Positions 19,901-41,929 of a DNA stretch of 42,299 nt are shown piece after piece (within the stretch, counting starts at the first letter, position 1; every line of letters begins with the position of its first letter). The position numbers were made by a program, and so were the translations under genes. This DNA comes from Chiloscyllium plagiosum. Lineage: Eukaryota. Location of the stretch: NCBI RefSeq assembly GCF_004010195.1, contig NC_057755.1, forward strand, positions 11,738,580 to 11,780,878, given 5' to 3'. The notes below the pieces were generated by a model that was not told the DNA's origin, did not search any database, and saw only the letters and a list, made by a program, of their open reading frames with translations.

Positions 19901-21068
19901 TAGGAACATGGGACTGGGATATCATAGCAATTACAGAAACACGGCTCAGGGATGGGTAGGACTGGCAGCTTAATGTTCCATGATACATATGCGACAGGAA
20001 GGATGGAAAGGGAGGCAAGAGAGGAGGGGGAGTGGCATTTTTGATAAGGGATAGCACTATTGCTGTGCTGAGGGAGGATATTTACAGAAATACATCCAGG
20101 GAAGTTATTTGGATGGAACTGAGAAATAAGAAAGAGATGATCACCTAGTATGGATTGTATTATAGACCCCCTAATCGTCAGAGGGAAATTGAGAAACAAA
20201 CTTGTCAGGCGATCTCTGCAATCTGTAAGAATAATAGGGTGGTTATGGTAGGGGATTTAAACTTTCCAAACATCGACTGGGACTGCCATAATGTTAAAGG
20301 TTTAGGTGGAGAGGAATTTCTTAAGTGCGTACAAGACAATTTTCTGATTCAGTATGTGGATGTACCTACTAGGGAAGGTGCAAAACTTGACATACAAGTC
20401 ACCTGGGCAGGTGACTGAGGTGTCAGTGGGGGAGCACTTTGGGGCCAGCAACCATAATTCTATTTGTTTTAAATTAGTGATGGAAAAGGATAGACCAGAT
20501 CTAAAAGTTGAAGTTCTAAATTGGAGGAAGGCCAATTTTGATGTATTAGGCAAGAACTTTCGAAAGCTGACTGGAGGCAGATGTTGGCAGGGAAAAGGAC
20601 ATCTGGAAAATGGGAAGCCTTCAGAAATGACATAATAAGAATCCAGAGAAAGTATATTCCTGTCAGGGTGAAAGGGAAGCTGGTAGGTATGGGGAATGCT
20701 GGATGACTAAAGAAATTTAGGGTTTGGTTAAGAAAAAGAAGGAAGCATATGTCAGGTATAGACAAGATAGATCGAGTGAATCCTTCGAAGAGTATATAGG
20801 AAGTAGGAGTATACTTAAGAGGGAAATCAGGAAGGCAAAAGGGGACATGAAATAGGGTTGGCAAATAGAATTAAGGAGAATCCAAAGGGTTTTTACAAAT
20901 ATATTAAGGACAAAAGGGTAACTTGGGAGAGAATAGGGCCCCTCAAAGATCAGCAAGGCGGTCTTTGTGTGGAGTCGCAGAAAATGGGGGAAGACGCTAA
21001 ATGAATATTTTGCATCAGTATTTAATGAGGAAAAGGATATGGAAGATATAGGCAGTAGGGAAATAGAT

Positions 21069-21217
21069 ATGTTGCTGGAAAAGCGCAGCAGGTCAGGCAG
21101 CATTCAAGGAGCAGGAGAATCGACGTTTCGTGCATAAACCCTTCTTTAGGAATCAGTTTCCAGCAACACATTTTTCAAGCACTGATCTCCAGCATCTGCA
21201 GTCCTCACTTTCTCCCT
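21069..21217. mobile_element. Fold-back Penelope-derived mini-element, copy 1
   Basis: 14-bp TSD GTAGGGAAATAGAT at 21055-21068 and 21218-21231; degenerate hammerhead motif on the minus strand at 21118-21153. Confidence 0.85.
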
Positions 21218-21844
21218 GTAGGGAAATAGATGGTGACACCTTACAAAATGTCCAGATTACAGAGGAGGAAGTGCTGGATGTCTTGAAACGGTTAAAAGTG
21301 GATAAATCCCCAGGACCTGATCAGGTGTAACCAGGAACACTCTGGGAAGCTAGAGAAGTGATTGCTGGGCCTCTTGTTGAGATATTTGTATCATCAATAT
21401 TCACAGGTGAAGTGCCGGAAGACTGGAGGTTGGCAAAGGTGGTGCCACCTTTTAAGAAGGGCGGTAAAGACAAACCAGGGAAGTATAGACCGGTGAGCCT
21501 GACCTTGGTGGTGGGCAAGTTGTTGGAGGGAATCCTGAGGGGCAGGATGTACATGTATTTGGAAAGGCAAGGACTGATTCGGGATAGTCAACATGGTTTG
21601 GTACATGGGAACTCATGTCTCACAAACTTGATTGAGTTTTTTGAAGAAGTAACAAAGAAGATTGATGAGGGCAGAGCGGTAGATGTGATCTATATGGATT
21701 TCAGTAAGGCGTTCGACAAGGTTCCCCATGGGAGACTGATTAGCAAGGTTAGATCTCATGGAATAAAGGGAAAACTAACCATTTGGATACAGAACTGGCT
21801 CAAAGGTAGAAGACAGAGGGTGGTGTGGAGGGTTGTTTTTCAGA

Positions 21845-22205
21845 NNNNNNNNNNNNNNNNNNNNNNNNNNNNNNNNNNNNNNNNNNNNNNNNNNNNNNNN
21901 NNNNNNNNNNNNNNNNNNNNNNNNNNNNNNNNNNNNNNNNNNNNNNNNNNNNNNNNNNNNNNNNNNNNNNNNNNNNNNNNNNNNNNNNNNNNNNNNNNNN
22001 NNNNNNNNNNNNNNNNNNNNNNNNNNNNNNNNNNNNNNNNNNNNNNNNNNNNNNNNNNNNNNNNNNNNNNNNNNNNNNNNNNNNNNNNNNNNNNNNNNNN
22101 NNNNNNNNNNNNNNNNNNNNNNNNNNNNNNNNNNNNNNNNNNNNNNNNNNNNNNNNNNNNNNNNNNNNNNNNNNNNNNNNNNNNNNNNNNNNNNNNNNNN
22201 NNNNN
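21845..22205. other. Assembly gap (361 N) inside the CR1 RT
   Basis: Run of n. Confidence 1.
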
Positions 22206-22891
22206 GTTCAGAAAAGATTTACAAGGTTGTTGCCAGGGTTGGAGGATTTGAGCTATAGGGAAAGGCTGAACAGGCTGGGGCTGTTTTCCCTGGAGCGTCG
22301 GAGACTGAGGAGTGACCTTATAGAGGTTTACAAAATTGAGGGACATGAATAGGGTAAATAGGTAAAGGGTCGGGGAGTCCAGAACTAGAGGGCATTGACT
22401 TAGTGTGAGAGGGGAAAGATATAAAGGAGACCTACGGGGCAACTTTTTCACGCAGAGGGTAGAACGTGTGTGGAATGAGCTGCTAGAGGAAATGGTGGAG
22501 GCTGGTACGATTGCAACATTAAAGAGGCATTTGGATGGGTATATGAATAAGAAGGGTTTGGAGGGATATGGGCCGGGTGCTGGCAGGGACTAGACTGGGT
22601 TGGGATATCTGGTCGGCATGGACAGGTTGGACCGTAGGGTCTGTTTCCATGCTGTACATCTCTATGACTCTATTAGTGGCAGGACAAGGGAACCTAATTG
22701 CCGATGCGTTGTCACAACTTCGATGAGGCATTCTATGGCAGGGAAAATGGATTGAAATAAACTGTACTTGTGAATGTTTGCATGAATAGAGTCACTGTAA
22801 CGTGTATGTATTGTAGTCTAATAAGGGAAGGCTAAAGGTTTTTAAAAATGAATCCATACATTGATGGTTCATTCTTTTTAAAGGGTGGAGG

Positions 22892-23487
22892 TAGGACGGT
22901 GCTAGCCTTTATGAAGTGTGTTTTTTCCTTTTTTTATAAAGAAAGGTTAAGACAGAGGTATTAAGCAGTCTGCTTAAAGCCAGTAGACAGCTTATGAGGC
23001 CTTGAGTTTTGTTTTAAAGTTAGAACAATAGAAGCAGCCTGAATGCCTGACTCCCACAGTAAAAGGATTTTTAGTTTTAGCATTTTGCAGTTGCTGGCAT
23101 CTTAAGCTGGATGTGAAAGCCCTTATTCCTTTTTCTATGACAGCTAAATGCTGGAGTTCTCTTCCTGCTGCTAGAATTGCATGTGAGATAATCTATTTTA
23201 CTGAATTTGCCTTTGCCAAGGGTGTGTTTATCGGATATTACTGTATTGGAACAGTTACTATTTAGTAGTTAAATAATCTATTCTTATATTAAATTTTGAG
23301 CTCGTCAGATTATTCTAATTTCCTCTTTCTTTCATTATATTTTAACCATTGTGTATGAATAAAATATGTTTTTCGTCAAGACTGGTAGTTTGACCGATCG
23401 AATTGCATCTAGAACACAATACCTGGCACATGCCTTCAAAATAAGGAAAAATTAAAGAGTAGACTGGGTTTGAGCTCGTTCACAACA
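22892..23487 (+). repeat. 3' LTR of the Gmr1-like element
   Basis: Preceded by the purine tract aaagggtggagg, contains AATAAA at about 23358, ends ACAACA; homologous to the solo LTR at 13957-14564. Confidence 0.72.
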
Positions 23488-23574
23488 GGCTCGCAAACAG
23501 TTTCTGTGCACTACTCTTCAATTCCATGGCTTTAGTTTTACACTTTGATCTCTTATTTGAGACTTTGTTGAAAC

Positions 23575-23740
23575 CTTATAGAGTCATACAGTGTGAAAAT
23601 AAACCAAAGGCTTCAACTCCTCCTTGCTGACCAAATTTCCCAAACTAATTGCCTGCCTTTGGCCCATATCCCTCCAAACCTTTTTTCTTCATGTACCTTT
23701 CCAAATGTCCTCAGGCAGTTCATTCCACATGAATCACTCT
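23575..23740 (-). mobile_element. CR1 3' end fragment
   Basis: tagagtcatac...tggcccatatccctccaaacc...ttcattcca. Confidence 0.75.
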
Positions 23741-24284
23741 GTCCAAATTAACCACATCCACAGGCTCCCCCAATTAATGTTTTAGTTATGTCTTTGAAGA
23801 ATGCTGTATATTTGTGAAGCATGATTTTCCTTTCATAAATAAATTTTAGTAATCATTGACTGTCTGACCCTGCCATTCTTTTCCAAGTACCTCAGCTATT
23901 AATTCTTTTGTAATAGATTTTGACTCCAGAATCCATCTGTGTTAATGTGTGTTTGTTTACACACACGGAATGAAATCTAAATGCAACAATACAGAGTTTT
24001 GTAAATAAATATTACCTCCTGATTTAAACTAACTTCAGTGCCAGCTTCATATTTACTTATGAGGATCGCAACACTCAAAAGCTTTGTTTTGGGTTTCTCC
24101 ATGTGTTCAGTCTCAGCTGCAAGTAGCTTTGGTTTAGGAACTGGAGCAACCTGATTATTTTATGAAATTCATGTTCCTTTGGAAGTGTTCTCAACTTTCT
24201 GATGAATTAGAAGGATCTGCTACCAAACAAGATTTCATACCAAGACAAGCAAGAATCTGGACCAATAACAGAGGGAGAGGTTGG

Positions 24285-24660
24285 GGTTGGGGCTGTTTTC
24301 CCTGGAGCGTCGGAGCTGAGGGGTGACATTATAGAAGTTTATAAAATCATGAGGATTATGCATGGGGTAAATAGATACGGTATTTTTCTCTGCGGTAGGG
24401 GGAGTCCAGAACTAGATTTAGGGTGAGAGGGGAAAGATTTAAAAGGGACCTAAGGGGCAACTTTTTCATGCAGAGGGTGGTGTGTGTGTATGGAGTGAGC
24501 TGCCAGAGGAAGTGGTGGAACTTGGTACAATTACAACATTTAAAAGGCTTTTGGATGGGTATATGAATAGGAAGGGTTTAGCGGGATATGGGCCAAATGC
24601 CGGCAAATGGGATTAGATTCTGGTTGGCATGGACGAGTTGGACCGTTTCTGTGCCATACG
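24285..24660 (+). mobile_element. CR1 3' end fragment
   Basis: ctgttttccctggagcgtcgg...cagagggtggtg...ggcatggacgagttggacc; matches 9270-9620. Confidence 0.9.
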
Positions 24661-25344
24661 TTTATAACTATATCTGAAGCCAAGGCAGTCTTTCTGCTCC
24701 ATGCCAGTTTTTAGTTTTTTTTTGTGCTTTGAGATGAAATTGCAGTGGAAAATGGAAGAGTCTGGTACCTGTGATCCAGTCAGCACCAACAACATATAGG
24801 TAGAACTAAGAAAGTGAATCTGTTGAGAGTATGAGAAGTTAGATGCTAGATTAAAAAGCAGAACCTCAAACATTATAATCTCTAGATTACCATCTGAGCC
24901 ATGTGCAAATTGGCATTGGATGAATAAGATTAGAGAGTGGCTCAAAAACTGCTTGGCGAGAAGTGGATTCTGGTTTGTAGGACACTGATAGCAGGCAGTT
25001 CAAAGCAGGTTTGTGAGGATGACATTTGGAATAAGTGGTTGTCATTTGAGGACAGGTTGGACTGGCTGGGCTTGTTTCTCCTGGAGTTGAGAAAAGTCAG
25101 GGTTGACTTGATTGAAGCATACCAGATCATAAATGGTCTTGACGAGATGGATGCGGAAAGAATGCTTTATCTTGAGAGAGAGAGAGAGAGAGAGACTGGG
25201 GGCACTGCTTTAAAATTAGGGCTCATCCTATAAGGGCAGAGATGAGGGGTTCAAATTCTTGTTACGCAAGTGACTTGATCATCACTGGGGGTAAATGAGA
25301 ATGTATAGTTCAGAATACTGATAAACCATGATATTGAATCATGA

Positions 25345-25399
25345 GGTGTGGACTTGTTGGGCCGAAGGGCCTGTTTCCACACTGTAAAGTAATCTAATC
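25345..25399 (+). mobile_element. 55-bp HE1/CR1-type 3' tail flanked by a 39-bp direct repeat
   Basis: ggtgtggacttgttgggccgaagggcctgtttccacactgtaaagtaatctaatc; 25306-25344 is identical to 25400-25438. Confidence 0.9.
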
Positions 25400-26700
25400 T
25401 AGTTCAGAATACTGATAAACCATGATATTGAATCATGAAGAGTTTTGAAGGCCCAAATGGCTTATGTCTGATAACTTACATGTTAGTATGTTCGGGAGTT
25501 ATCTGATTTTTGGGATATTTGAGCAAGACAGCAGTGAGATGTATGCTGACGATAGGGTGCCCACCATCATGAGGGTTTGAAAGGTTGCCTTGAAAGATTC
25601 TCGTGGAACGATAGCAAAATATCTTATACCTCATAAAATAGCAGGAACACGGAGGAGAATCAAAGTGAATGCCTGAGAGCTGTGGCACACCCTCATTTGG
25701 CCCTAAAAGATATTAAGACAGCCTCAGCTTCTTGTAAAGTAATTATTGGGAGAAAAATAAAAGTAAGCAGACAGTGTCCCAGGGATCTTCCAGCATAAAG
25801 AATGAGCATTTATAAAATGTAGTTTTATAACTTGAACTTGCATTGTTCAGTTCTCAATAAATGTTTCTTCGGCTTAAAACATGAGCCCTTGGAGGGTAGT
25901 TCTTTCTGTTAAATGGAAGTTTAAATTTCTTGTTAAAAGCTCATTGTCTCCTTTGAAATAATAATTATATTCAAATTTTGTCTGCAAGGACTGATTTAAT
26001 TAATCAGTTAAAGGAGGTGTGTTTGGTCAGTTAAAGGTTTTGTATGTTAATAGCTGTTGATGCCGAGCACACACCCAGGCATGAGAGTCACATTGAGAAT
26101 TCGAGCGTGTAACCAGAGTCCATTTTCCAGCTGTTGATAATGTCAGTGTTGGGAGGGAGAGGGGGAGGATGTTCGAGAAACTGGCAGAGGTGAGGAGCAG
26201 TTCAGCAGCAAGTTATTTTGCTTGGAGCAGTAGTGTCCCAGAGAGGTGAAATGGGAATGATGGAATGGGGCTGATAATGTGAGGGATGGAAGGAATCGGT
26301 TAAGGATGGATTGGAAGTGATAGGTTGACATAAAAGAATGGATTGACATGGGATTGGCTAGTTTGCAGGAGTGGGTGAGTTTCATTAGCATGACAATGTT
26401 TTGATCAGGCCTATTCCAAAGGTGTTCTTCGTACAAAAAATGAAGATTAATGAGATTTGAATGAAAAGTTTTCAAAAAGCATTACAATTGTTTGATCCCT
26501 TTTATTTTTGCATAGCTATTCTTTGTGTTATAAATAAAGAATCATGAGATTTGAATGGGAGGATTATCAAAAGGTTGTGAGCTAAATTGAAAGAAAATAG
26601 GTACTCGAATTCTGTCTTCAAGATGGTAGTGTATTTTGTCCAGAGTCCCCACATAAACCACCATGAAAAAGAGCAGTTATATTGTAGCGATAAAATGGGA

Positions 26701-26852
26701 GGAAGTGTGTACTGCAGATGCTGGAGATTAGAGTGAAGATTACTGGAAAAGCAAGTCAGGCAGCATCCAAGGAGCAGGAAAATCAACGTTTCGTGCAAAG
26801 GCCCTTCATCAGGAATTCTGACCTGTGCTTTTCCAGCACCACTCTAATCTTG
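26701..26852. mobile_element. Fold-back Penelope-derived mini-element, copy 2
   Basis: 14-bp TSD GCGATAAAATGGGA at 26687-26700 and 26853-26866. Minus strand 26781-26816 reads CTGATGA-AGGGC-CTTT-GCAC-GAAACGTT. Confidence 0.85.
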
Positions 26853-27329
26853 GCGATAAAATGGGAACCTAGTCATGCGGCTAGTTTAGTTTTTGGAAGT
26901 TATTTTCTAGGATGATAGATTTGAAATTTATAGAAAGCAAATTTTGGGGCATAGTATTTAATCCTTAAATAATTTAGCCTAACCTATGTAAAATGACCTT
27001 TTCAACTCAGGGGAAAATAGTTCTTCTCAAGCAGACTTCCATAGTCTATTATTGTAGACCAAACTCAATGTCAAACTTTCAAAAAAAAAGTGTATTTGTG
27101 TTCCTATACTTGTTTTTTCACATGGGAAGTTGTATGAAGCTTGCTTTAAGTGAGAAGTTTTGATTCTGTTAAAGTTTTTTTGTAAAAGAATAACTGATAC
27201 TGTTTTAATTATTATGCTTAAAGTACTATTTTAATTGCAAATGTTTTTTAACCTGGCTGGTTATAAGCATTGTGTAAATTCTAACAGATATGCTTATGCC
27301 AATGTTATGACATTGTTTTTGTCTTGCAG

Positions 27330-27496
27330 TTTTTGGTTGGAATGAAAGGCAAAGATGAAGCCATGGCCATTGGCGGACACTGGTCTCCCTCTTTGGATGG
27401 ACCTAATCCTGAGACTGACCCTTCAGTATTGATTAGGACTGCTATCCGATGTTGTAAGGCCCTGACGAGCATTGACTTGAGTGGTTGCACACAGTG
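27330..27496 (+). CDS. CCAR1: CCAR1 internal coding exon (3rd), 167 nt, DBC1/Nudix-like domain
   Basis: gtcttgcag|TTT acceptor, TG|gtaagt donor. Encodes FLVGMKGKDEAMAIGGHWSPSLDGPNPETDPSVLIRTAIRCCKALTSIDLSGCTQ(W). Confidence 0.96.
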
Positions 27497-28322
27497 GTAA
27501 GTAATACTTCAGTTACAGGGCAGAGCCTTATAGTATAACACTAAGATTCTGTTTTCTGTTATATTTATGATTCGAGTCTTAACTGTTTGCGCTGTTGTTT
27601 TCTCGCCCAGCAGCCAACCACATTCCAGGTAAAAAATACATGACGTCGTTCTGCTAATTCTACACTTGCGGCAACCCTTATGTGGCAATGCATGTCTCAT
27701 GTAGTGAGAGATGTCATTATTTCATAAGAATGACATTGGAGAGACATAAAGCATTTTAGATATAATTCATTGTTCTGAATGTGTACTTAATATACATGTA
27801 TAAATGCTGTAAATCTGTATTACTATTTCATGCCAATGTGCTATATATGTGGTGTGCCTTGAAGAAAAGTCATGCGTGGAGAGGATGTCGCCACTGGGAT
27901 GAATAATTAGGATGTTCAATTGATAATAGAATTGTTTTCCTTTTTTTGTGTAAATAAACTTTCAGTGATGCCACGCAAGTTCTTCTGAATTGTACAGCCA
28001 GTGTCATTTAACTGCAAGGCATTAAAGCAGTGAGTCAATATACAATTTATTTTAAAAAAAGTTTTTTGTTTTGCTTTTCACTACTAGCATCTACCCAAAT
28101 AGATTTGTTACTATCCAATCTTTGGTAATGATGGAACTTTCATTATTATGACTGAGATGTGTGAATTGTTTATTCACCTGCCTGGTGCCTACAGTTGCAG
28201 TTAAGTGATATTGAACAGTGTATATGACGCATTTCTCTAGCTTGATATCCTGCGAGACATTTAGGGTCTATGTGATGTCTGATAGAATTTTCCTTTCCAA
28301 TACACTTCTTCCCTTGCAACAG

Positions 28323-28533
28323 GTACCGTTTTGCAGAGATCCGTTACCATCGCCCCGAGGAGCACCACAAGGGGCGGACGGTTCCAGCCCATGTGGAGAC
28401 CGTGGTTATATTTCTGCCGGATGTTTGGCATTGCCTTCCCACCCGTTCAGAGTGGGAAGCGCTCTCTCGTGGATACAAGCAGCAGCTGGTTGAGAAGCTC
28501 CAAGCTGAACACAAGGAGGCTGATGGAGAACAG
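28323..28533 (+). CDS. CCAR1: CCAR1 internal coding exon (4th), 211 nt, ends at a non-canonical GC donor
   Basis: ttgcaacag|G acceptor completes the TG|G Trp codon. Encodes YRFAEIRYHRPEEHHKGRTVPAHVETVVIFLPDVWHCLPTRSEWEALSRGYKQQLVEKLQAEHKEADGEQ. The 3' end is placed by homology (EADGEQ then D/EEEEKDDG), which gives CAG|gcactg. Confidence 0.9.
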
Positions 28534-29301
28534 GCACTGAACGCTAATCCTTTTCCATTTCCGCTTCTCACAGGCACAGGGACACCCACAAAAAAAGTGC
28601 ATCACATACATACAGATCAAGTAACGGGCTCTTTTTATGAGCAGTGCACACATTTGAGAAGACATAGATGCAAAGCTACAGTAACTGGTAACATAGCTCC
28701 CAGCTTAGAGTCCGAGCCGACTTCCTTTCATCAATTCGGTCTCTCAGAATGAATGACCTGCAATTTCCTCAAAAGAAATGAACCAAAACCAGTACATTTG
28801 GAATCTAAGCTTTGTTTTCTTCAAATGATAGTTACTTGTATTCAGATTTCGCTCTTTCATACGCAGCAAGAAAATCAATTCCTGCTGGAAGCTTGTCACC
28901 AGTTGTTGAGTTGGGCAGGCATTGTTAGCTGTTTACAGAAATTTCTACTTTCCAAATTTTCCATATCCCCTTTCTCTTGCTTTCTTTTAACTCTAGTATG
29001 TTCCTCTTACCTACACAACCATTGGATATGCACAAACCTTTGAAAGATATTTGATTTGCAGGTCAGTTGGTTGAGCCACAGTTTCGTGCAGTGTGGGGTG
29101 TGTGGAGCAAACTCTTTGATAGCGAATATGTCTGGGGGGCTTGTACCTATTGAGAGGGAATGAGAACACACACTGTTTGGCCGCCAGGGACCATCAGTGT
29201 CTGCAGCCCTTGAATCCTTTTGTTTGATGTCATTGATCACCTTTTTGTGTTCCACAGATCTGGCTTTGATTGGCTGATGAGTGGCATGTGATCAGTTAAA
29301 A

Positions 29302-29324
29302 TGTGTGTGTGTGTGTGTGTGTGT
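29302..29324 (+). repeat. (TG)11 microsatellite
   Basis: Direct reading. Confidence 0.95.
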
Positions 29325-29497
29325 TTACATAGGAATGAACTGTTCTATTCAGTAACATTGAGGAGGAGTCAATCTGAGGGGCTGTTGTGACCTTTGCTAC
29401 TTGCACGGATCGGCAACTCTTGTTTCAAAAAATGAGTGAATACATTTCCAGGCATTCTCCAAATATTGCTGACTATTCCTGTTTTTTATTTGAACAG

Positions 29498-29581
29498 GAA
29501 GAGGAGGAAAAGGATGATGGGGAGAGCAAAGAAATTTCTACACCTACTCACTGGTCGAAGCTAGATCCAAAGACAATGAAA
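29498..29581 (+). CDS. CCAR1: CCAR1 internal coding exon (5th), 84 nt
   Basis: ttgaacag|GAA acceptor, AAA|gtaagc donor. Encodes EEEEKDDGESKEISTPTHWSKLDPKTMK. Confidence 0.96.
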
Positions 29582-29669
29582 GTAAGCAAGTTTTAAAATT
29601 TTGCTAAAGACAAAATTACTTCACTTTTGAAGCAAAAACAAGAAGGCAGATTACTACGTGATTGGCTGT

Positions 29670-30435
29670 AAATTGGAAGAGGAGATTGTGCAGCAGGACA
29701 TGGGTGTCCTGTGCAAGGTAAGCATGCAGGTGAAGCAGACAATAAGGAAGGCAAATGGTATGTTGGCCTTCGTTGCGAGAGGTTTGGAGTACAGGACCAG
29801 GAATGTGGTGTTGCAGTTATGCAGGGCATGGGTGAGGCAGTGTCTGAAATATTGTGTGTAGTTTGGTCTCCTTTTCTGAGGAAGGTTGCTGTTGCTCTCT
29901 AGGGAGTGTAGTGCAGATTTACCAGGCTGATTCAGAGGATGGTGGGACTGATTTACGAGGAGAGGTTGACTAGATTAGGGTTGTTTTTGCTGCAGTTCAG
30001 ATAAATGAGGGGGGATCTCATTTATCACTCAAGAGGGTTTGAGCTATAGGGAGACGCTGAATAAACTGGGCCTATTTTCACTGGAGCATGGGAGGCTGAG
30101 GTGTGACCTAATTGAGGTTTATAAAATCATAAGGGTAAATAGATAAGGTCTTTTCCCTGGAATGGGGGAGTCCAGAGCTCGAGGGCATAGGTTTAGGGTG
30201 AGTGGGGAAAGATTTTAAAGGGACCAGAGGGGGAACTTTTTCGTGCAGAGGGTGGTGCGTGTAAGGAATGACCTGCCAGAGGAAGTGACGGAGGCTGTAA
30301 AGGCATCTGGATAGGTTTTATGAATGGGAAATGTTCATAGTGATATGGGCCAAATGTTGGAAAATGGGACTATATTAATCTAGTTGGCATGGACGAGTTG
30401 GAATGAAGGGTCTGTTCCCATGCTGTACACCTCTA
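29670..30435 (+). mobile_element. Two abutting CR1 ORF2 3' fragments
   Basis: KANGMLAFVARGLEYRT..LKYCV; a second fragment from about 30030 ends at a ccatgctgtacacctcta tail. Confidence 0.85.
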
Positions 30436-30456
30436 AGTACTACTTTTGATTTATAG

Positions 30457-30685
30457 TGTTATGGAACAGACCAGATCCCTCAAAATATATTAAGAAGGTA
30501 GCCTATGCCCTAACATTTTCTTATTTTGAACGTAGATGTCAGGAAATGTGTTCCAAATGCCATTCAATTTGTCAAACTACTCAATTTTATAAAACAATAT
30601 TCAAATGCTACTGTTAAAATACAACAAAAGAAAGAAAAACTTAGAATAACTTAACTCTATTGGAAAACTAAACAATAATAGGATC
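30457..30685 (-). mobile_element. Partial LTR of the Gmr1-type family
   Basis: tgttatggaacagaccaga..aaatatattaagaaggtagcct..ccctaac aligns with 13957-14170. Confidence 0.75.
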
Positions 30686-30890
30686 CTTACAGTATGGAAA
30701 CAGGCCATTTGGCCCAACAAGTCCACACCGACCCTCCAAAGAGTATCCCACCCAGACCCATTTCCCTACCCTATTACTTTATATTTCCCCTGACTATGCA
30801 CCTAATCTACACGTCCCTGATCACAATGGCCAATTCATCTAATCTTTGGTCTGTGGGTTGAAACCGGAGCACCCGGAAGAAACCCATGCA
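30686..30890 (-). mobile_element. HE1-type SINE, 3' half
   Basis: ggaaacaggcc..ggcccaacaagtccacaccgacc..aaaccggagcacccggaagaaaccca. Confidence 0.88.
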
Positions 30891-31639
30891 GCTGTTTCAT
30901 CAGTGGCTTTCCTTCCATCATCAGGTCAGAAATGGAGATCATCCCTGATTACACAGCAATATTCACCATTTATGGCTCATACTCAAGCATCCAGACTTGG
31001 GCTTGTGTGTGGTGTGAATGGTTCTTGAGTGCCAGGCATCCATTTCTAATAAGAGAAAACTAGGCATCTTCCCTTGATGATATGGGCACAGTCACGCTGA
31101 AGTCCGCTGGTAAGGTTGGTCAAACAAATCCACAGCTCCCTGGGTGTTCAAGAGGTAGAAATTATGATAAGGGAGAAAATGTGTGCTTATGACTGATGTC
31201 ATAGAAAACACAATTGAGAACCAGACTGATCAGAGAAGATTTAGTGGGGAGGTTAAAAATAAATAAAAAGAGGAAAGAGAGAATATGCAAAGAGACTGAT
31301 AGCTATTATAAAAATAAATTCTGAGGCCTTCTATATAAATAATGAAAGTCTAGTGAAAGGAGTAATTGGGGCAAATCAGGGACCAAGAAGAGGATTTACA
31401 CTTTGAAGCAGAAGTCTTTACCAAGGACGAAGATACTATTCAGGCCATAATGAAAGAGGAGAAAATTCAGTCACTAAAAGGATTTAACCTTGAAAGGAAG
31501 TGGCATTGGTTTTGTACCTGTCGTTAAAGATAGCAAGACACCAGGACCGGGTAAGATGCATCTGAAGATACTGACCAAAGTGAAAATGGAAATTACAGGG
31601 ACACTGGCAGTGATTTTTCGGTCATCTTTGAATTGGGGT

Positions 31640-32375
31640 GTTGCGACTGTTTGGGTTCTAAGTTTGCTCGCTGAGCTGGCAGGTTTGTTTTCAGATGTTT
31701 CATCGCCATGCTAGGAAACATCATCAGTGAAGCGCTGGTGTTCTATCCCGCTTTCTGTTTGTGTGTCTTGGTCTCTAAAGGTGGGTGCTATCATTTCCAG
31801 TTCTTTTTCTCAGAGGTTGGTAAATGTGGTCCAAATCGATGGAGTTTGGATTTGAATGTCAGGCCTCCAGGAATTCCCCTGCATGTCTCTGTATGGCCTG
31901 TCCTAGGATGGATATGTTGCCCCAGGGGAAGTGCTGTCCTTTGTCTGTATGTAAGGATAATAGTGATAGTGGGTCATGTCTTTTGGTGGCTAGTTGGTGT
32001 TCATGTGTCCTGCTGGCTAGTTTTCTGCCTGTCTGTCCACCGTGTTTGTTACAGTCCTTAGGAGAAAGTGAGGACTGCAGATGCTGGAGATCAAGAGTCG
32101 AAAGATGTGGTGCTGGAAAGGCACAGCCAGTCAGGCAGCATGCGAGGAGCAGGAGAGTACACGTTTCAGCATAAGCTCTTCATCAGGCCTCTCCTACTCT
32201 TCGGATGCTGTCAGACCGGTTGTTCTTTCCAGCACCACACTCTTCGATTTTGTTACAGTCCTTGCATAGTATTTTGTAAATGGCGTTTGTTTTCCTGGTT
32301 GTTGGTATCGGGTCCTTTTAAGGTTTATCAGTAGCTGTTTCAGTGCGTTGGTAGGTTTGTGGGCTACCATGATGT
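31640..32375 (-). mobile_element. Penelope-like element 3' portion: GIY-YIG endonuclease and terminal repeat
   Basis: After removing the insert at 32060-32248, the minus strand reads NAIYKILCKDCNKHGGQTGRKLASRTHEHQLATKRHD. Hammerhead-like CTGATGA..GAAAC at 31692-31729. Confidence 0.88.
32060..32248. mobile_element. Fold-back Penelope-derived mini-element, copy 3
   Basis: 15-bp TSD TTTGTTACAGTCCTT at 32045-32059 and 32249-32263. Minus strand CTGATGAAGAGCTTATGCTGAAACGT. Confidence 0.88.
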
Positions 32376-32714
32376 GACATTATTTGGAAATTGCAAATGT
32401 TACGCTGTTTTAGAAGTTTTCGAGGTGGTCAAGCAACTATCAACCAGTTCATCTTACTTCATTTGTTTGGGGAACATCTAGAAACAGTAATCTAGAACAA
32501 AATTAACAATCACATGGGTACATGTGACTTTATTAAGAAGAGCAAGCACTGGTTTCCAAAAGAAAAACAATGTTCAACTAATCTGCTGGAGTTTTTTGAT
32601 CACTATTATATTGTTAATATGGTACATGAACTTCCAGAAGATAATTCTTATTTGGAAAGTTGATGCAGACACAGTGGGCTGAATGGCTTCCTGTACTGTA
32701 ATAATTCTGTGACT

Positions 32715-32962
32715 GTGCCTTCCAAACTTGAGACTGCTGCTACTTAGAGGGGTAAGAGCAGCAGATACATGGAAACACAAGTACTGCAGGTTCCTCGTCA
32801 ACCCACTCATGAGTTATATCTTTGTTTCTTCACTGTCATGAGATTAAAGTCCGAGAGCTCCCTCATTAATGGCAATGTTGTGCCTGCACATGTTGACTGC
32901 AACAGTTCAAGAATGTGGCTTACCATCATCTTTTTAAGGGCAGTTGGGCATTGGAAATAAAT
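32715..32962 (+). mobile_element. 3' end of a non-HER1 LINE sharing its tail with the SINE at 13533
   Basis: ...actgcaacagttcaagaatgtggcttaccatcatctttttaagggcagttgggcattggaaataaat. Confidence 0.6.
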
Positions 32963-33690
32963 AGAGTCATAGAGATGTACAGCACAGAAAAGACCCTTCG
33001 GTCCAACTTGTCCATGCTAACCAGATATCCTAACCAAATCTAGTCCCACCTGCCAGCATCTGGCCTATATCCCTCCAAACGGCACTGGTTAGCACTGCTG
33101 TCTCACAGTGCAAGAGACCCGGGTTCAATTCCCGCCTCAGGCGACTGACTGTGTGGAGTTTGCACATTCTCTGGGTGCTCCGGTTTCCTCCCACAGTTCA
33201 AAAATGTGCAGGTTAGGTGAATTGGCCATGCTAAATTGCCCGTAGTGTTAGGTGAAGGGATAAATGTAGGGGAATGGGTCTGGGTGGGTTGCGCTTCGGC
33301 GGGTCGGTGTGGACTTGTTGGGCCGAAGGGCCTGCTTCCACATTGTTAATCGAATCTAATCAAACCCTTTCGATTCATATATCCATTCAGGTGCTTTTAA
33401 ATGTTGCAATTATACCAGCCTCCACCACTACTTCTGACAGCTCATTCCATACATGTACTCTGAGTGGAAAAGTTGCCTCTTAGGTCTCTTTTATATCTTT
33501 CCCCTCTCACCTTAAACCTATGCCCTCTATTTCTGGACTCCCCACCCCGGGGAAAAGACTTTGTCTCTTTATCCTATCCATGCCCCTCATGATTTTATAA
33601 ACCTCTATAAGGTCACCCCTCAGCCTCCGATGCTCCAGGGAAAACGGCCCAGCCCATTTAACCTGTCCCTATAGCTCAAATCCTCCAACG
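32962..33690 (-). mobile_element. CR1 3' end, interrupted by an HE1 SINE
   Basis: tagagtcatagagatgtacagc tail; reverse complement of 9230-9650. Confidence 0.9.
33081..33360 (+). mobile_element. HE1-type V-SINE
   Basis: Reverse-complement match to 737-1045; CAAAC duplicated at 33076-33080 and 33361-33365. Confidence 0.92.
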
Positions 33691-34409
33691 CTAGACTAGT
33701 CAATGATGCTCATATACAATGAAATAATTTCAAAAAGTAGATACATGCATAAATCCATTTGCACATATAGTTACGTACAAATGCGCAAACAGACACAGAG
33801 ATACATTGGGACTGACTAACTTCCATTCTGAGTTAGGTTAAAGTCCAGGTTCCAGAGGCGATTCCCTTGCCCATGGCACTGTCCCAATCATAATGCCATA
33901 GAGATCGACAGCACAGAAAAGGCTCTTTGGCCCATGAAGTCTGCACCAGTCAAAAATGAGCGTTTAACTATTTTTATCTTGTTTTCCATCACTTAGCTCA
34001 CAGTCTTATCAGCTTTGGCATCAAGTACCAAGTACGCATCTAAGTACTTCTCAATTATGGCTGTCAGCTTGAGTCAAAAAGTTAAGAATTTAAGACTTTC
34101 TGCAGTTCCTTGAGTGCTTACATAGAGGCTGAGAATCCAGTGCCCAAGCATACACACCAGATTTCTTTTAGTTGTGCTGATCTGGGAGAGTTATCTTCTG
34201 TCATGCACTGCTCAAGCGTTGGTACAAGAGGGACATTTTTTGATTCCTGGGTCACTGGGACCATTTTTGGGGAAGGAGGGACAAATGAGATGGTCTGCAT
34301 CAATATTCTGGCAGATAGTTTTGCTATTGCACTTGTCTGCCAGGTAAGGGGACGCAGAATATCAATGAAACAGAGACCCATCATGCTACAGCACAGGGGT
34401 TCAGCTCTC

Positions 34410-34745
34410 AAACGTAGAATGTTACAGCACAGTACAGGCCCTTCAACCCTCGATGTTGCATCGACCTGTGAAAATAATCTGATGCCCATCTAACCTACAC
34501 TGTTCCATTATTATCCATATATATGTCCAATGCCTTAACTTCAGCGAGTCTACTACTGTTGCAGGCAGACTGTTCCACACCCCTACTACTCAGGGTAGTA
34601 AAGAAACTACCCTGATATCTGTCCTAAATCTAGCATCCCTCAACTTAAAGCTATGTCCCCTTGTGTTAGCCTTCACCATCCGAGGAAAGAGGCTCTCACT
34701 GTCCACCCTACCTAATCCTCTGTTTATCTTGTATGTCTCGATTTG
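34410..34745 (-). mobile_element. CR1 3' end (another subfamily)
   Basis: IETYKINRGLGRVDSESLFPRMVKANTRGHSFKL on the minus strand. Confidence 0.85.
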
Positions 34746-34779
34746 AGTGACAAGTCGATGGTCTTTATTGTTAACAGTG

Positions 34780-37500
34780 TAAAAGTAAGACTGATGAGTT
34801 AATGGTGTGGATTGGCAATGGAAGTATGATTTAGTTGCCATAACAGAAACACAGTTGAGGGAAAGGCTGGACTGACAACTCAGTATTCCAAGGTATAGGA
34901 TCTTAAGGCGACACACAGGTGGGTGTAAAAAGGGTGGTGATGTAGCACTATTAATTAAGGAGTCAATTATTGCATTAAGGAGAGATGATGTATCGGAAGG
35001 GCCCTCAAATGAGGTTTCAGGGTAGATTTTAGGAATATTAAGGGGCCATCTACTTGGAGTGTATTACAGACCCGCAAAGAATCGTGAGCAATAGATGTGC
35101 AAATGTGTAGACAGTTCACAGAGATGTGTAAGAGTAATACAGAAGTAATAATTACCTAGGGGATTTCAGCTTTGCCGACATGGATTTCAAAAGATGACTT
35201 TGCATTGGGAGTAGACAGATTTTATGAAAATGAAGCTGGATCTGGCCCCAGTAGGCTTGAAACAGCTCCTTGCGGGTAAATACAGTAGAGCAATGAGTGG
35301 CATTCAAAAAGGAGCTGGGGAGAGTGCAGGTCCAAAATGTACCTTTTAGAGGAAAATAGCAGCAATAAATTCAGAGAACCCTGCATGTCTGGGACACTTC
35401 AGGTGTGGATAAAGAAAAAGAATAGGGCTTTAAGCAAGTTCAAAGGGAGCAATTCAACTGCAGCCCTGGAGGAATACAGGGCATGCAGGGGGGACTTAAT
35501 AAAGCAATCAGAAGAACAAGAAGGGAAGATGAAGAAGGACTTGTGAACAGCATTAGGAAGAATCATAAGATATTTTATCAATACATTAAAGGGAAGAAGC
35601 TAACCAGACTAAGACTAGGGACCAAGGGCAACCTGTCTGTGAAGCTGCAAGATACTGGAAGGGGTTGAATGAATTCCTCTCTTTGGTCTTTACTCTTGGA
35701 AATGAGTTTAGGTACGGAATTCAGGAAAAGAGACTCTGAGGAACTCGCACAGTTTGACAGGAAATGGGGAGGTATTGGATGCTCTGTTGGGCTTAAAAGG
35801 AGAGAAATCCCTCACCCAGGTGAATTGCATCCTAGGCTGCTGTGGGAGGCGAGGCAGGAAATTGCAGGGCCTGTAAAACAATTTTTTAATTCCTCTCTGG
35901 ACGCAGGAAGTGTCAGAGGACTGGAGGATGGCTAATGTGGTTCCACATTTTAAGAAGGATGGTAGGGATGAGCCAGGAAATTACAGACTGGTGAGTCTCG
36001 CATCAGTGGAAGGGAAACTATTGGAGAAAATTCTGAAATAGTGAATTAATGCCCACTTGGAAAGGCATGGGGAAGTTAGGAATAGTTAGCATGGTTTTGT
36101 CAGAGGGAAGTCACGCCTATCAAATTTGTTAGAATTTTTTGAAAATGGTATCATAGGTTGGATGAGGGAAGTTCAGATTGGTGTAGTTTTTATGAATTAT
36201 AGCAAAGCTTTGACAAGGTCCCACGTGGGAGACTGATTGAAAAGATTAAAGCACACAGAATTGAAGGGAACTTGGTGTAATGGATCAGAAATGGCTTAGT
36301 AATAGGATACAAAAGGTAGTGGTAGAAGGCTGTTTGAGTAACTGGAGGCCAATGTTTAGCGGTCTACGGCAAGGATCTGTTCTGGGGCCCTTATTGTTTG
36401 TTATACATAAATTATATAGATGAAAATGTATGGGAAATGTCAAGCAAATTTGTAGATGAAACCACGATTGGTCGAGTGGTTTATAATGAAGATGATGATT
36501 GTAGGTTATAGGAAGTTATAAATGGATTAGTCAGATTAGTGGCAGATGGAATTAACCCTCATAAATGTGAGATTATACACTTTTGGAAGAAGAAACAAGG
36601 TGAGGAAGTATTTAATGAACACTGGATAGCTTAGAGGAACAGAGGAATACTGGGGTAATTATTCAGAAGTCCATGTGAATGGGATAGTTAAGAGGATGTA
36701 TTGGACACTTGCTTTCATCAGTTGTGGCATGGAGTATAAGAGCAAGAAGTTAATGTTGGAGTTGTACAGAACATTGGCCAGGCCACAACTGTGCAGTTCT
36801 GGTCACCTCACTTCAGAAAGGATGTGATAGCGCTAGAGAGGTTACAAAGGAGGTTCACCAGGATGTTGCCACGGATAGTGAAATTGAGCTAAAGGACAGA
36901 TAGGCTTGGTTGTTTATTTTTAGAGCAGAGAAGACTGAGAGGGGATGATTGAGGTGTGTAAGATTATGGGGGTTGTGGACAAGGTGAATAGACAGCAGAG
37001 TCAAAAAGTATGGCACTGGAAAAGCAAGCCAGTCAGGCAGCATCCAAGGAGCAGGAGGGTTGATGTTTCGAGCATAAGCACTTCATCAGGAATGATGAAT
37101 AAGCTTATGCTGAAAACGTCAATGCTCTTGCTCCTCAGATGCAGCCTGACTGGCTGTGCTTTTCCAGCACCGTACTTTTTGACTCTGATCTCCAGCATCT
37201 GCAGTCCTCACTTTCTCCTGAATACAGAGCAGCTGTTTTAGGGTAAAGGGGAGGAGATTCAGAGAGGATTTAGGGGGTAAGAAAAGTGGGAATCTGGAAT
37301 GCACTGCCTGGGAAGGTAGTGGAGACTGGAAACCTTCCAACCTTTTAAAAAATGTATTTGGATGAGCACTTTGAGTATCGTAACATTTAAAGATGTGGGA
37401 TAAGTGCGGGAAATTGAGATTAGTTTACTTGTAACTGGTACTTTTGTTGGTGCAGACGTGATGAGGCAAAGGGCCTTTTCTACGTTTTATGAATTTATGA
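34780..37500 (+). mobile_element. Old CR1 ORF2 (APE+RT to 3' end), heavily degraded
   Basis: YDLVAITETQL, GVYYRP, FYQYIKGK, HPRLLWEARQEIAGP, ctttgacaaggtcccac, VQFWSPHFRKD. Confidence 0.88.
36999..37218. mobile_element. Fold-back Penelope-derived mini-element, copy 4 (long hairpin)
   Basis: Inverted arms at about 36996-37088 and 37093-37187. TSD TGAATAGACAGCAG/TGAATACAGAGCAG (12/14) at 36985-36998 and 37219-37232. Confidence 0.85.
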
Positions 37501-37807
37501 ATGGGATGTACATGTTGTTAATGTTGTGTAAGGATAAGAAGAAACTTGGTGATAATGGTTGCACTACTTACAAGTATCTGTATATTGAGTTCATCATATA
37601 GCTTGCATATCAAGACGCGTATCTCAGCTTGGTACACCTTCATGAGACTTGTAAAAGAATCCCTCTGTTAGCGTGAATACATACATGTGTACAGACTATT
37701 TTCTGATCTATTCAAGTCCAATCTTAAAGCTCTTTGTTGAGGTATAGCTTGAATTGCTCAGTCAGTAATTGTTCAATGCACACAACAAGAAGACTCTACG
37801 AGGAGAG

Positions 37808-40800
37808 TTAAAAATCACACAACATCAGGCTGTAGTGTTGTGTTTAATTGGAAGCACACTAGCTTTCGGAGCATCGCTCCTTCATCAGGTGGTTGTGGAG
37901 GACACAATTGTAAGACACAGAATTTATAGCAAAAGTTTACAGTGTGATGTAACTGAAATTATACATTGAAAAATACTTGACTGTTGCGTCTTTCATCTGT
38001 TCGAATACCATGATAGTTTCACTTAATTCATGTGTAAATTACAAAACTTTTTTTAAAAAGTTGCATTCTCAGGTTAACTGTAACAATTGGTGTTAACTAG
38101 ACAATATGTTGAAGGTGTTAGCTCCCTGTGGGCTCTGTCTATGCCATAATGTTTAGACTGTTTCTAATCTAAAACGTGAGATAACAGAGTCTTGCATGAA
38201 TTCATGCAGTTTTTGAGCAAAGTACAATGTAACTCTGCAAGTACAAATTCACCCCACAAATGTGTGTGCGTGAGTGTAGAGTGGTCTAGGTCTCTCAGAG
38301 GGGGTGTATGTGTGGGTGTGTATGTGTAGTGCAATGGGTGTTGCAATGTAGTGTGAAATGTCCCAGTTGAGGCCCTCCCTATGGGTACGGAACTTAGCTA
38401 TCAGCCTCTGCTTGGCCACATCGGAAAGATCCCAAAAGGATCACGGATCATGAACCCACTCAAGTCAATCTACAACAGAGACTACGCAGAGAAACTTTGC
38501 CACCGTACCTCTTGCAAGCTTCTCAATCATCTTGTGCACCAAATCCACAGCAGGCACCACAACCTTGAAATTCACATGGAGTCCACACTCTCATCACGAC
38601 CTTGCCAAACAGACAAGGTGACAAAACCACACCACTTACATGCACACCAAGAACAAAAAGCTGGAGAAACTTGGCATTCCTACCAGTAGTAGCAAAGCCC
38701 ATCCTGGCACCACAGTAGATAACATTATCACTGCGGAGAAGTCTATGAACAACTTATCGGACCACGCCCTTCGGCTGGAAGAGATTGAAGTCCTGAGCAG
38801 GGGTCTCAACTTCTGCCCCACCATCAAAATAGACCCATTGGTTTTTGCAGCAGACACTGAGGAGTTCATCAGACGAATGAGACTCTGGGAATTCTTTCAA
38901 GGTGCCAGTAGTGATCCCAACGAGCCCACTGATGAACTGGAACAGTCATCACAGGGATCTGTAGAGAAGCGACCAAAGAAGGTGTCAACTTGGACCCCAC
39001 CGGAGGGCCGCTGCCCTGGGCTTGACATGTATGCTCAAACCGTCAGGAAGTATATAAATGCCAGATTCATCAGCCGTGCCCACAAGATAGAGCAAAACAT
39101 CACATGTTCACAACGCAACTCCATCCAGGCTCTCAAAACTAATCACAACATCGTCATCTAATCAGCAGATAAAGGAGGAGCCATTGTCATTCAGAATAGA
39201 ACAGATTACTGCAAGGAAGTGTACTAGCAACTAAACAACCAGGAACACTACAGGCAACCACCAGCTGATCCGACCAAAGAACACCACCCGTGAATTAAAC
39301 ACATTGATCAGGACTTTGGATCCAGTCCTTCAGAGTTCCCTACGCGTCCTCAAGCCACGTACTTCTCGTGTAGGCGACTTCTACTGCCTTCCAAAGGCAG
39401 TCCCATCGTATCAGGCAATGGGACCCTGTGTGAGAATCTCTCTGGCTATGTTGAAGGCTGGATCCCCAGCTTCTGTCGCAACACTATGGATTTCTTACAG
39501 AAACTCAGCACCCACGGACCAGTCGAACCAGGAACATTCCTCGTCACAATGGATGTTTCAGCACACTTCACCAGCATCCCCCACAATGATGGCATCGTGG
39601 CATCAGCCTCCGTACTCAACACCAACAACTGCCAATCTCCAAACACCGTCCTACAACTTATCCGCTTTATCCTCGATCACAACGTCTTTACCTTTGACAG
39701 CCAGTTCTTCATCCAGACACACAGAACCGCTATGGAGACCAAATTTGCACCCCAATATGCCAACATCTTTATGCACAGGTTCGAACAAGACTTCTTTTCT
39801 ATGCAGGACCTCCATCCAACATTATACACCAGGTACATTGATGACATTTTCTTCCTCTGGATTCATGGCGAGGATAAAACTACATAGTGATATGTAGTTT
39901 TAACTACAAGTTTCATCCTGCCATCAAACTCACCATGGGCTGCTCTCGACTATCTGTCTCATTCTTGGACATATGCATCTCCATCAAGGATGGATACCTC
40001 AGCATCACACTCTACCGCAAACCCACAGGCAACCTCATAACGCTAGACTTCTTCAGCTTCCACCCAAAACATATTAAAACAGCCATCCCCTATGGACAAA
40101 CCCTACGCGTACACCGGATCTGTTCAGATGAGGAGGAACGTGATAGGCACCTGGAAGTACTCAGGGATGCCCTCATAAGAACTGGGTATGATGCTCGGAC
40201 ATGTTCCGACATGCCACAACAAGGAACTGTAATGACCTCCTCGGGAGACAGACACGTGCTGCAACTGACAGGGTACCCTTCGTTGTCCAGTACTTCCCAG
40301 GAGCTGAAAACCTACGCCATGTTCTTCGTGACCTGCAACACATTATCAATGAGGATGAGCACCTCGGCAAAACTACAGGTGACCCATTGCACTACACACA
40401 CACACAGACCCAGTTGCACACATATACATATACGTTTGTGGGGTGAATTTGTACTTGCAGAGTTGCATTGTACTTTGCTCAAAAACTGCATGAATTCATG
40501 CAAGACTCTGTTATCTCACGTTTTAGATTAGAATCAGTCTAAACATTATGGCACAGACAGAGAACACAGGAGACTAACACCTTCATCATATTGTCTAGCT
40601 AACACCAATTGTTAGAGTTAACCTGAGAATGCAACTTTTTTTAAAAAAAGTTTTATACATGAAAGAAATGAAACTATCGTGGTATTCAAACAGATGAAAG
40701 ACTCAACAAACAATCGAGGTATTTTCAATGTATAATTTCATTGTGTCCTCCACAACCACCCGATAAAGGAGCGTGCTCTGAAAGCTAGTGTGCTTCCAAT

Positions 40801-40880
40801 TAAACCTGTTGGACTATAACCTGGTGTTGTGTGATTTTTAACTTTGTACACCAGTCCAACACCGGCATCTCCAAATCATG
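37808..40880 (+). mobile_element. Penelope-like element with inverted pseudo-LTRs and a broken RT ORF
   Basis: VLSRGLNFCP, SADKGGAIVI, LVTMDVSAHFTSIPH, FAPQYANIFM, YTRYIDDIF, LYRKPT, AIPYGQ. 37808-38345 is the reverse complement of about 40380-40840. 38345-38420 on the minus strand encodes the endonuclease C-terminus (QRLIAKFRTHREGLN). Confidence 0.92.
37857..37891 (-). ncRNA. Minimal type I hammerhead ribozyme motif in a PLE terminal repeat
   Basis: Minus strand CAC-CTGATGA-A-GGAGC-GAT-GCTCC-GAAA-GCTA-GTG: stem I CAC/GTG, 5-bp stem II, palindromic AGCT stem III. Confidence 0.75.
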
Positions 40881-41541: not shown

Positions 41542-41929
41542 GTACCATTTGCAATTTTTCAGTGTTTATGCTTAAAGGTATTGTCCAAAGAGACACTGGC
41601 ACATGGCAAGCTGGGGGCAGGATTGTACCAATTTACTGTGCGTGCTGTGTGAGAGGCCATGCTAGACCTGGATGTGGACCCTCTGAACTGGACGCAGAAG
41701 CTAGCAATCGGAGGGTCTGAAACATTGTAGGTGTGCTGTGTGGGTTTGACCACTGTTGAGGACTGTTTTCTGCTGGATCATCTTCTTCCACCCAATCAAC
41801 TGATAGCTGTGGAAATGTATCCTCAAGCCTATTTCCAGGAATTTCAGTGAATTATGGGCTTCTGGGTTTGAATATGGTTTTGAAAAGTTGTATTCAAAAG
41901 GTGCTGGAGGAACTCAGCAGGTCTGGCAA

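What the first reader, a model, noticed from the sequence alone, without database searches (positions are those of the whole stretch)
21055..37232. Family of fold-back, hammerhead-bearing mini-retroelements with uniform 14-15-bp TSDs (4 copies)
Seen: four 149-220-bp non-coding inserts (21069-21217, 26701-26852, 32060-32248, 36999-37218), each with a 14-15-bp TSD. All share one fixed terminus (GGAGAAAGTGAGGACTGCAGATGCTGGAG or its reverse complement, diverged in copy 2) and carry a variably deleted inverted copy of the same unit, so each folds back on itself. The inversion point sits right beside a CTGATGA-stem-GAAACGT motif. Known: Penelope-like elements carry minimal hammerheads in their terminal repeats and often have inverted 5' ends. 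Inference: a non-autonomous, ribozyme-processed retroelement mobilised by a PLE RT/GIY-YIG with a fixed nick stagger of about 14 nt, where ribozyme cleavage or fold-back priming sets the inversion point. It is younger than the CR1s and the PLE it interrupts. It may already be in repeat libraries under a generic name.
Basis: partly seen in the sequence, partly recalled or inferred. Interest (0 to 1): 0.72.

Follow-up and report, generated by a model that had tools for sequence, protein, structure and literature searches.

The report
Two-ended Penelope retroelement insertion stubs
These four short inserts are real, but they are head-to-head pairs of the end piece of a very common Penelope-type jumping gene in a shark genome, in a layout already described for that class; each was likely built on landing from two DNA copies of the element's RNA and is probably not a self-spreading, ribozyme-cut mini-element.

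Summary
The four inserts exist at the stated coordinates. Target duplications are 14, 14 and 15 bp exact, and 12 of 14 in copy 4. Each insert is two arms of one ~125-nt unit joined head to head. The unit begins at a minimal hammerhead motif, and only one arm carries the last ~35-47 nt. That is the published Penelope-like (PLE) layout: inverted pLTR plus one-sided tail. An ORF-bearing PLE of another family in the window shows it too.

The turn lies at the motif's 5' edge in all four copies, about 30 nt upstream of the predicted cut; only 1 of 8 arms starts at the cut. All four junctions differ, and copy 1 barely folds. Public reads show tens of thousands of contigs, two outer ends and mostly uncut motifs. 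So neither a self-amplifying fold-back family nor cleavage setting the inversion is supported as the rule.

Likely mechanism: both nicked strands prime reverse transcription at two starts, and the cDNAs join. No whole genome was held, so genome-wide duplication lengths and the autonomous parent are untested. This scan reported the same structure and model before on other DNA of this genome.

The parts
21055..21068 (.). copy 1 left target duplication (right copy 21218-21231)
   Evidence: 14/14 exact; present once in the paralogous CR1 near 8090
21069..21153 (-). copy 1 tail-less arm; reaches 4 nt upstream of hammerhead C3 (21149); core damaged
21157..21217 (+). copy 1 tailed arm, only the last ~60 nt of the unit
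26687..26700 (.). copy 2 left target duplication (right copy 26853-26866)
   Evidence: 14/14 exact
26701..26816 (-). copy 2 tailed arm; best-kept hammerhead core (C3 at 26812, predicted cut between 26785 and 26784)
26818..26852 (+). copy 2 tail-less arm, 35 nt; starts at a short repeat of the motif's first letters
32045..32059 (.). copy 3 left target duplication (right copy 32249-32263)
   Evidence: 15/15 exact; duplicates five codons of the host frame
32060..32187 (-). copy 3 tailed arm; ends 1 nt upstream of C3 (32186), followed by one extra base at 32188
32189..32248 (+). copy 3 tail-less arm; starts 0-2 nt after the predicted cut
36985..36998 (.). copy 4 left target duplication (right copy 37219-37232)
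   Evidence: 12/14
36999..37095 (-). copy 4 tail-less arm, complete to the motif's 5' edge (C3 at 37089)
37093..37218 (+). copy 4 tailed arm, complete from motif position 4; overlaps the other arm by 3 bases; open 38-codon frame from loop II to the end
37807..40880 (+). control, other family: ORF-bearing PLE with inverted ends, a hammerhead-type motif in each (37888 minus, 40761 plus) and a one-sided ~38-nt tail; no credible duplication found
31640..32385 (-). host of copy 3: decayed PLE 3' end with a GIY-YIG-like frame (likeness recalled, no Pfam hit) and its own hammerhead-type motif at 31727

Best explanation
Each insert is two arms of one short hammerhead-bearing unit joined head to head between target duplications, with a tail on one arm only, and is likely the end piece (pLTR) of an endonuclease-bearing Penelope-like element written anew at each landing. 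Inferred steps: (1) the PLE protein nicks both target strands about 14-15 nt apart; (2) each nick primes reverse transcription of the element's RNA, one at the outer start and one about 35-47 nt further in, which makes the one-sided tail; (3) the copies run towards the RNA's 5' end, likely a few nt upstream of the hammerhead core; most templates are likely uncut, a minority may be ribozyme-cut, and some copies stop early; (4) the two cDNA ends are joined, at times through 3-5 nt of microhomology, and gap filling makes the duplication. The products are likely dead; their cores have decayed. Confidence: about 0.9 that these are PLE end stubs, about 0.6 for the two-ended route.
For: Tail-less arms stop 37, 38, 38 and 48 alignment columns short of the terminus in 4 of 4 copies. 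The ORF-bearing PLE in the window has the same layout with a 38-nt tail; its RT frame is 83% identical to a Chiloscyllium punctatum protein and more distant hits carry GIY-YIG. Reads: 43,176 contigs of run X1 lie on the 188-bp copy 3 stretch; loose ends pile at 32058-32061 and at 32106 with flank agreement 0.33-0.42 in the contig runs. Depth collapses after 26816, 4 nt upstream of C3, in 4 of 4 runs. Raw-read depth is 1309 just 3' of the cut and 1140 just 5' of it, so most copies span the cut (X21). 5 of 8 arms reach within 6 nt of C3. In copy 1 neither arm contains the other. The two arms of one insert share letters that other inserts lack, which fits one template per event. Published: inverted copy plus 30-40-bp tail (PMC8557442, passages); a purified PLE nicks and extends both strands and has two RT starts that define the tail, using mainly uncut RNA (PMC11167929, main text); opposite-strand hammerhead pairs 100-700 bp apart (PMC4209133, results).
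Against: The autonomous parent of this family was not found: no protein hit, no DNA hit in three microbial or viral collections, no genome held. Only a short shared continuation upstream of the motif shows in loose ends. No transcript start or cap was observed; an extra G fits copies 1 and 3 only. A copy 2-like junction occurs in at least 3 listed contigs that differ from copy 2 by 12-14 letters (table 8), so a junction can recur or be inherited. 2 of 4 listed opposite-strand joints, and copy 3, start at or within 2 nt of the cut. Arms within an insert differ at 28 of 192 positions against 2 of 57 for the duplications (P 0.007; 0.07 without CpG changes), more than one shared template predicts. 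Deletion of a full palindrome after insertion could also give copies 1-3.
Confidence: 0.6

Rival explanations
1. Self-priming: one cDNA (or an antisense template) folds back and copies itself, and deletions at the palindrome centre follow later.
For: Proposed for PLE palindromes in PMC3846280 (Discussion). Copy 4 is a near-complete palindrome; copy 2's jump sits on a 5-nt microhomology; arms share insert-specific letters.
Against: Copy 1 needs a large one-sided deletion that stops at the turn; in copies 1-3 one arm is intact up to the turn. It does not by itself explain why the second arm stops 35-47 nt short of the terminus in 4 of 4 copies.
Confidence: 0.22
2. A separate non-autonomous fold-back element that amplifies from its own master copies, using the PLE enzymes in trans.
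For: Very high abundance; a copy 2-like junction recurs in at least 3 other contigs (table 8); pLTR-only mobilisation in trans is published (PMC3846280, passages), and animal retrozymes derive from pLTRs (bioRxiv 10.64898/2026.07.22.740005, abstract).
Against: Four of four junctions differ; arms of different inserts are 75-88% alike. Listed opposite-strand joints have 1-2 contigs each and depth up to 58, beside summed depths of 10^5-10^6 on the unit (depth is no copy number). At the motif's 5' edge the commonest loose ends run into unrelated DNA (agreement 0.32).
Confidence: 0.1
3. Ribozyme cleavage fixes the inversion point: the copies are made from cut RNA.
For: Copy 3's second arm starts 0-2 nt after the cut; joints 26784/26817 and 26782/26814 do too: 3 of 8 junctions, rough P 0.015, with biased detection. 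Earlier scan notes report U6 fusions at the cut (not checked here).
Against: Every insert keeps sequence 5' of the cut in at least one arm, which a 3' cleavage product lacks. Raw depth falls only 13% across the cut. PAc insertion did not need cleavage in vitro (PMC11167929).
Confidence: 0.08

Closest known systems
Insertion unit of endonuclease-bearing PLEs: inverted 5'-truncated pLTR, 30-40-bp tail at one end, TSD (PMC8557442 passages; PMC3846280 passages and Discussion)
   Same: Head-to-head arms, one-sided tail, target duplication, hammerhead in the repeat
   Different: No ORF between the arms; duplications of 14-15 bp against 8-10 bp in Adineta; the turn sits at the motif's 5' edge
Minimal type I hammerheads in metazoan pLTRs (PMC4209133, parts 1-2 of 4)
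   Same: Core boxes, one unpaired base before helix II, palindromic positions 15.2-16.2, pairs on opposite strands 100-700 bp apart, mostly ORF-less copies
   Different: Helix II 4 bp, helix I weak; cleavage not tested; window copies decayed
Poseidon PAc of Anolis in vitro (PMC11167929, main text)
   Same: Two RT starts that define the tail, 111-118 nt after a start codon in the hammerhead; here the ATG in loop II lies 112 nt from the end in copy 4
   Different: The part I read does not describe head-to-head joining of two cDNAs or duplication lengths; no protein was found that begins with this frame
Non-LTR retrozymes (bioRxiv 10.64898/2026.07.22.740005, parts 1-2 of 5)
   Same: Non-coding, type I hammerhead, pLTR-related
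   Different: Retrozymes are head-to-tail tandem arrays; these are single head-to-head pairs
LINE-1 twin priming (recalled, no paper read)
   Same: Both target strands prime; inverted insert with a duplication
   Different: As recalled, L1 arms cover different parts of one RNA; here they mostly overlap and the second start is fixed

Membership tests
EN+ PLE pLTR stub | minimal hammerhead in the terminal repeat | tested here: met
   Core boxes in the arms; majority letters of reads restore helix II and the GUC triplet in copy 2 (table 3); helix II pair 2 is G-C in copies 1-2 and A-U type in copies 3-4. No Rfam hit.
EN+ PLE pLTR stub | inverted 5'-truncated copy adjacent at the 5' end | tested here: met
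   4 of 4
EN+ PLE pLTR stub | 30-40-bp tail at one end only | tested here: met
   37, 38, 38 and 48 columns; second end in reads
EN+ PLE pLTR stub | target-site duplication | tested here: met
EN+ PLE pLTR stub | the same unit bounds an RT plus GIY-YIG ORF somewhere in the genome | tested here: inconclusive
   No genome; no protein or DNA hit; a short shared upstream continuation in 3 DNA runs. Shown only for a different family in the window.
Minimal hammerhead ribozyme | self-cleavage, as a dimer or with protein help | not testable with these tools
   The ribozyme fold is not the lowest-energy monomer fold in 5 of 5 arms folded; published minimal motifs are inactive as monomers (PMC4209133).
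Non-LTR retrozyme | head-to-tail tandem units, each with a hammerhead | tested here: not met
   Single head-to-head pairs in 4 of 4
Non-LTR retrozyme | circular RNA intermediate | not testable with these tools
   Only poly(A) single-cell raw reads were offered
Independent non-autonomous (SINE-like) family | copies share one master structure, including the internal junction | tested here: not met
   4 different junctions; one junction type recurs in at least 3 contigs, so a small sub-lineage is not excluded

The most novel reading that the evidence does not exclude
These stubs are a very large genomic record of the PLE integration reaction: two-ended target-primed reverse transcription from nicks about 14-15 nt apart and two fixed RNA starts, with each cDNA running off either the uncut transcript start or, less often, the ribozyme-cut end. 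Junction counts would then give the nick stagger, the start site and the share of RNA cut in the germ line, and explain the inverted-plus-tail layout of PLEs.
Probability: 0.45. Interest if true: 0.6.

Novelty: new member of a known kind. Interest (0 to 1): 0.33.

Why it matters
As an element it is ordinary PLE debris in a published layout. Its value is as evidence on an open question. The papers read call the origin of PLE inverted ends and the role of the hammerhead unresolved (PMC8557442, PMC3846280 and PMC11167929, parts seen). These short inserts keep both outer ends, the turn and the duplication within about 200 bp, so a genome-wide table could decide between two-ended priming and self-priming and measure how often cut RNA is the template.

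Tried and rejected
No whole genome was held, so there is no genome-wide table of duplication lengths or junctions. Rfam at E<=1 gave 2 matches in the window, neither a hammerhead; the MIR844 match on copy 3 (30 bits, cut-off 70) only reflects the hairpin. Exact-motif scans found nothing in metagenome contigs, prokaryote genomes or viral contigs. The 38-codon frame of copy 4 found no longer protein (7 candidates, none at E<=0.001; weak evidence), no Pfam family and no match among the 86 other proteins held. No RNA holder was listed for the locus, and run X22 laid no reads; neither bears on expression. Poly(A) single-cell reads showed no pile of starts or ends (table 6); they cannot map a cap or a cut. 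Both lays show only the best-supported rows (382 and 518 loose-end rows hidden), so no fold-back fraction can be given. The opposite-strand joints (5 listed) were left out of the 3-of-8 count because copy 3 is diverged at the cut and alignments stop there. No credible duplication was found around the ORF-bearing control (best score 5-6, common in the null). The empty site of copy 4 could not be shown from CR1 paralogues in the window. A 31-bp match at 41902-41932 is a related fragment without the motif and was not counted. Five literature searches listed no paper on this shark family; 'Penelope + twin priming + inverted' listed 2 papers, seen as listings only and not about PLE integration by title. 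Dfam and Repbase were not available, and most subscription papers and the bioRxiv supplements were not seen.
Full report
Setting. The RT frame at 39294-39884 is 83% identical to a Chiloscyllium punctatum protein, and its named top hits are sharks, so this is a shark genome. No whole genome was held.

Observation. BLAST of the four inserts against the window finds them as the only full members, plus a 31-bp fragment at 41902. Duplications are exact at 14, 14 and 15 bp for copies 1-3 and 12 of 14 for copy 4. Of 600 random positions, 5 scored as well as copy 4 and none as well as the others. Two are confirmed independently: the paralogous CR1 near 8090 carries the copy 1 site once, and the copy 3 duplication repeats five codons of the host frame. 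Boundaries are uncertain by about 2 bp. Copies 2-4 fold back strongly; copy 1 does not (z 0.0; 12-bp overlap).

Anatomy. All eight arms align to one unit of about 125 nt that, on its sense strand, begins at the hammerhead core and ends in the 'fixed terminus'. In each insert the arms are head to head with their 3' ends facing out. One arm has the terminus; the other stops 37, 38, 38 or 48 columns short. This is the layout published for endonuclease-bearing PLEs: an inverted, 5'-truncated copy and a 30-40-bp tail at one end (PMC8557442, passages; PMC3846280, passages). The window holds a control of another family at 37807-40880: a decayed RT frame between inverted ends, a hammerhead-type motif in each, C3-to-end distances of 82 and 120 nt, hence a 38-nt tail. 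Copy 4 gives 91 and 127. In the Anolis element PAc the tail is the stretch between two RT starts 111-118 nt after a start codon in the hammerhead (PMC11167929). In copy 4 an open frame runs from an ATG in loop II to the terminus, 112 nt away, but no protein with this start was found.

Where the turn lies. The predicted cut is 28 nt after C3 (in copy 2, between 26785 and 26784). Five of 8 arms reach within 6 nt of C3, at least one in every insert. One arm (copy 3) starts 0-2 nt after the cut, and two start further down. Junctions: copy 1 has three unexplained bases, the first an extra G; copy 2 jumps across a 5-nt microhomology; copy 3 has one extra G, or starts at the cut with one substitution; copy 4 overlaps by three bases. 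The motif fits the minimal hammerhead of PMC4209133, which also reports opposite-strand pairs 100-700 bp apart. None of the five motif-bearing arms is fully canonical; majority letters in reads restore it.

Public reads. Twenty of 24 listed runs hold part of the locus, in three coded organisms. On copy 3, 43,176 contigs of X1 were laid; loose ends at 32058-32061 and 32106 run into unrelated, AT-rich DNA (agreement 0.33-0.42 in the contig runs), which shows the tailed and tail-less ends across the genome. One X21 row at 32058 has agreement 0.82, probably a single expressed locus. On copy 2, depth collapses after 26816 in all four runs. Loose ends there have agreement 0.32 in the three contig runs (0.41 in X21) yet begin with the same few letters, so most go into unrelated DNA and a minority continue into a shared longer sequence. 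The position 26816 is partly set by the reference, which leaves the family there. Raw-read depth is 1309, 1140 and 749 in the bins 3' of the cut, just 5' of it, and at the core: most copies keep the uncut motif. Four opposite-strand joints are listed, all with one side at 26810-26817; two have the other side at or 2 nt from the cut. With the window's four, that is 3 of 8 (rough P 0.015; detection biased). At least three listed contigs carry a copy 2-like junction at other loci (table 8).

Mechanism. Shown: geometry, duplications, two outer ends, the turn at the 5' edge, different junctions, abundance. Taken from PMC11167929: a PLE protein nicks and extends both strands, starts at two sites and mainly uses uncut RNA. 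Inferred: both nicks prime, the cDNAs run to the RNA's 5' end or stop early, and are joined. Copy 1, whose arms almost tile the unit, fits this without extra steps. The idea that the 5' edge is a capped start came from earlier scan notes; here it has only two extra-G junctions behind it. Against it: arms within an insert differ at 28 of 192 positions, more than the duplications (2 of 57; P 0.007, or 0.07 without CpG changes). This could mean two template molecules, faster decay of hairpins, or bias from defining duplications by exact match. Self-priming with later deletion (PMC3846280) remains the main rival.

Membership and novelty. It works like, and by four of five features is, a PLE pLTR stub; the link to an ORF is untested for this family. 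It is not a retrozyme array. Five searches found no paper on this family; repeat libraries were not available. The scan has reported the same structure and the two-ended model at least eight times on other pieces of this genome; these notes are unchecked and are not support. Papers seen: PMC11167929 parts 1-2 of 4; PMC4209133 parts 1-2 of 4; bioRxiv 10.64898/2026.07.22.740005 parts 1-2 of 5; PMC3846280 passages and Discussion; PMC8557442 and PMC8969392 passages; all others as listings only. Verdict: real, a new member of a known kind, interest 0.33.

Noticed in passing
window 37807-40880: ORF-bearing PLE with inverted ends, hammerhead-type motifs on both strands, a one-sided 38-nt tail and no endonuclease part seen; the inverted arms differ by an internal deletion; no clear target duplication.
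   Followed up: partly
window 31640-32385 (minus): Third PLE family: GIY-YIG-like frame (likeness recalled) followed by a hammerhead-type motif at 31727 with a longer helix II; interrupted by copy 3.
   Followed up: partly
all four inserts: Arms within an insert are as diverged from each other (28 of 192) as from other inserts, while duplications are nearly perfect (2 of 57); possible two-template origin or faster mutation in hairpins.
   Followed up: partly
window 26751-26836 (table 8): A copy 2-like junction occurs in at least three other contigs of two organisms: a recurrent microhomology join or a small sub-lineage.
   Followed up: partly
window 32060-32097 (joints): Several contigs go back 33-38 nt to the terminus, i.e. 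the tail occurs as a tandem duplicate at some loci.
   Followed up: no
window 41902-41932: 31-bp fragment of a related repeat, directly followed by the end of a CR1/L2-type repeat.
   Followed up: no
window 17936-19334: Two copies, about 780-810 bp apart and 92-96% alike, of a LINE 5' region with an esterase-like ORF1 frame (likeness recalled).
   Followed up: no
window 32102-32244 and 36996-37187: Copies 3 and 4 would form long RNA hairpins in an intron on either strand; possible substrates for RNA editing.
   Followed up: no
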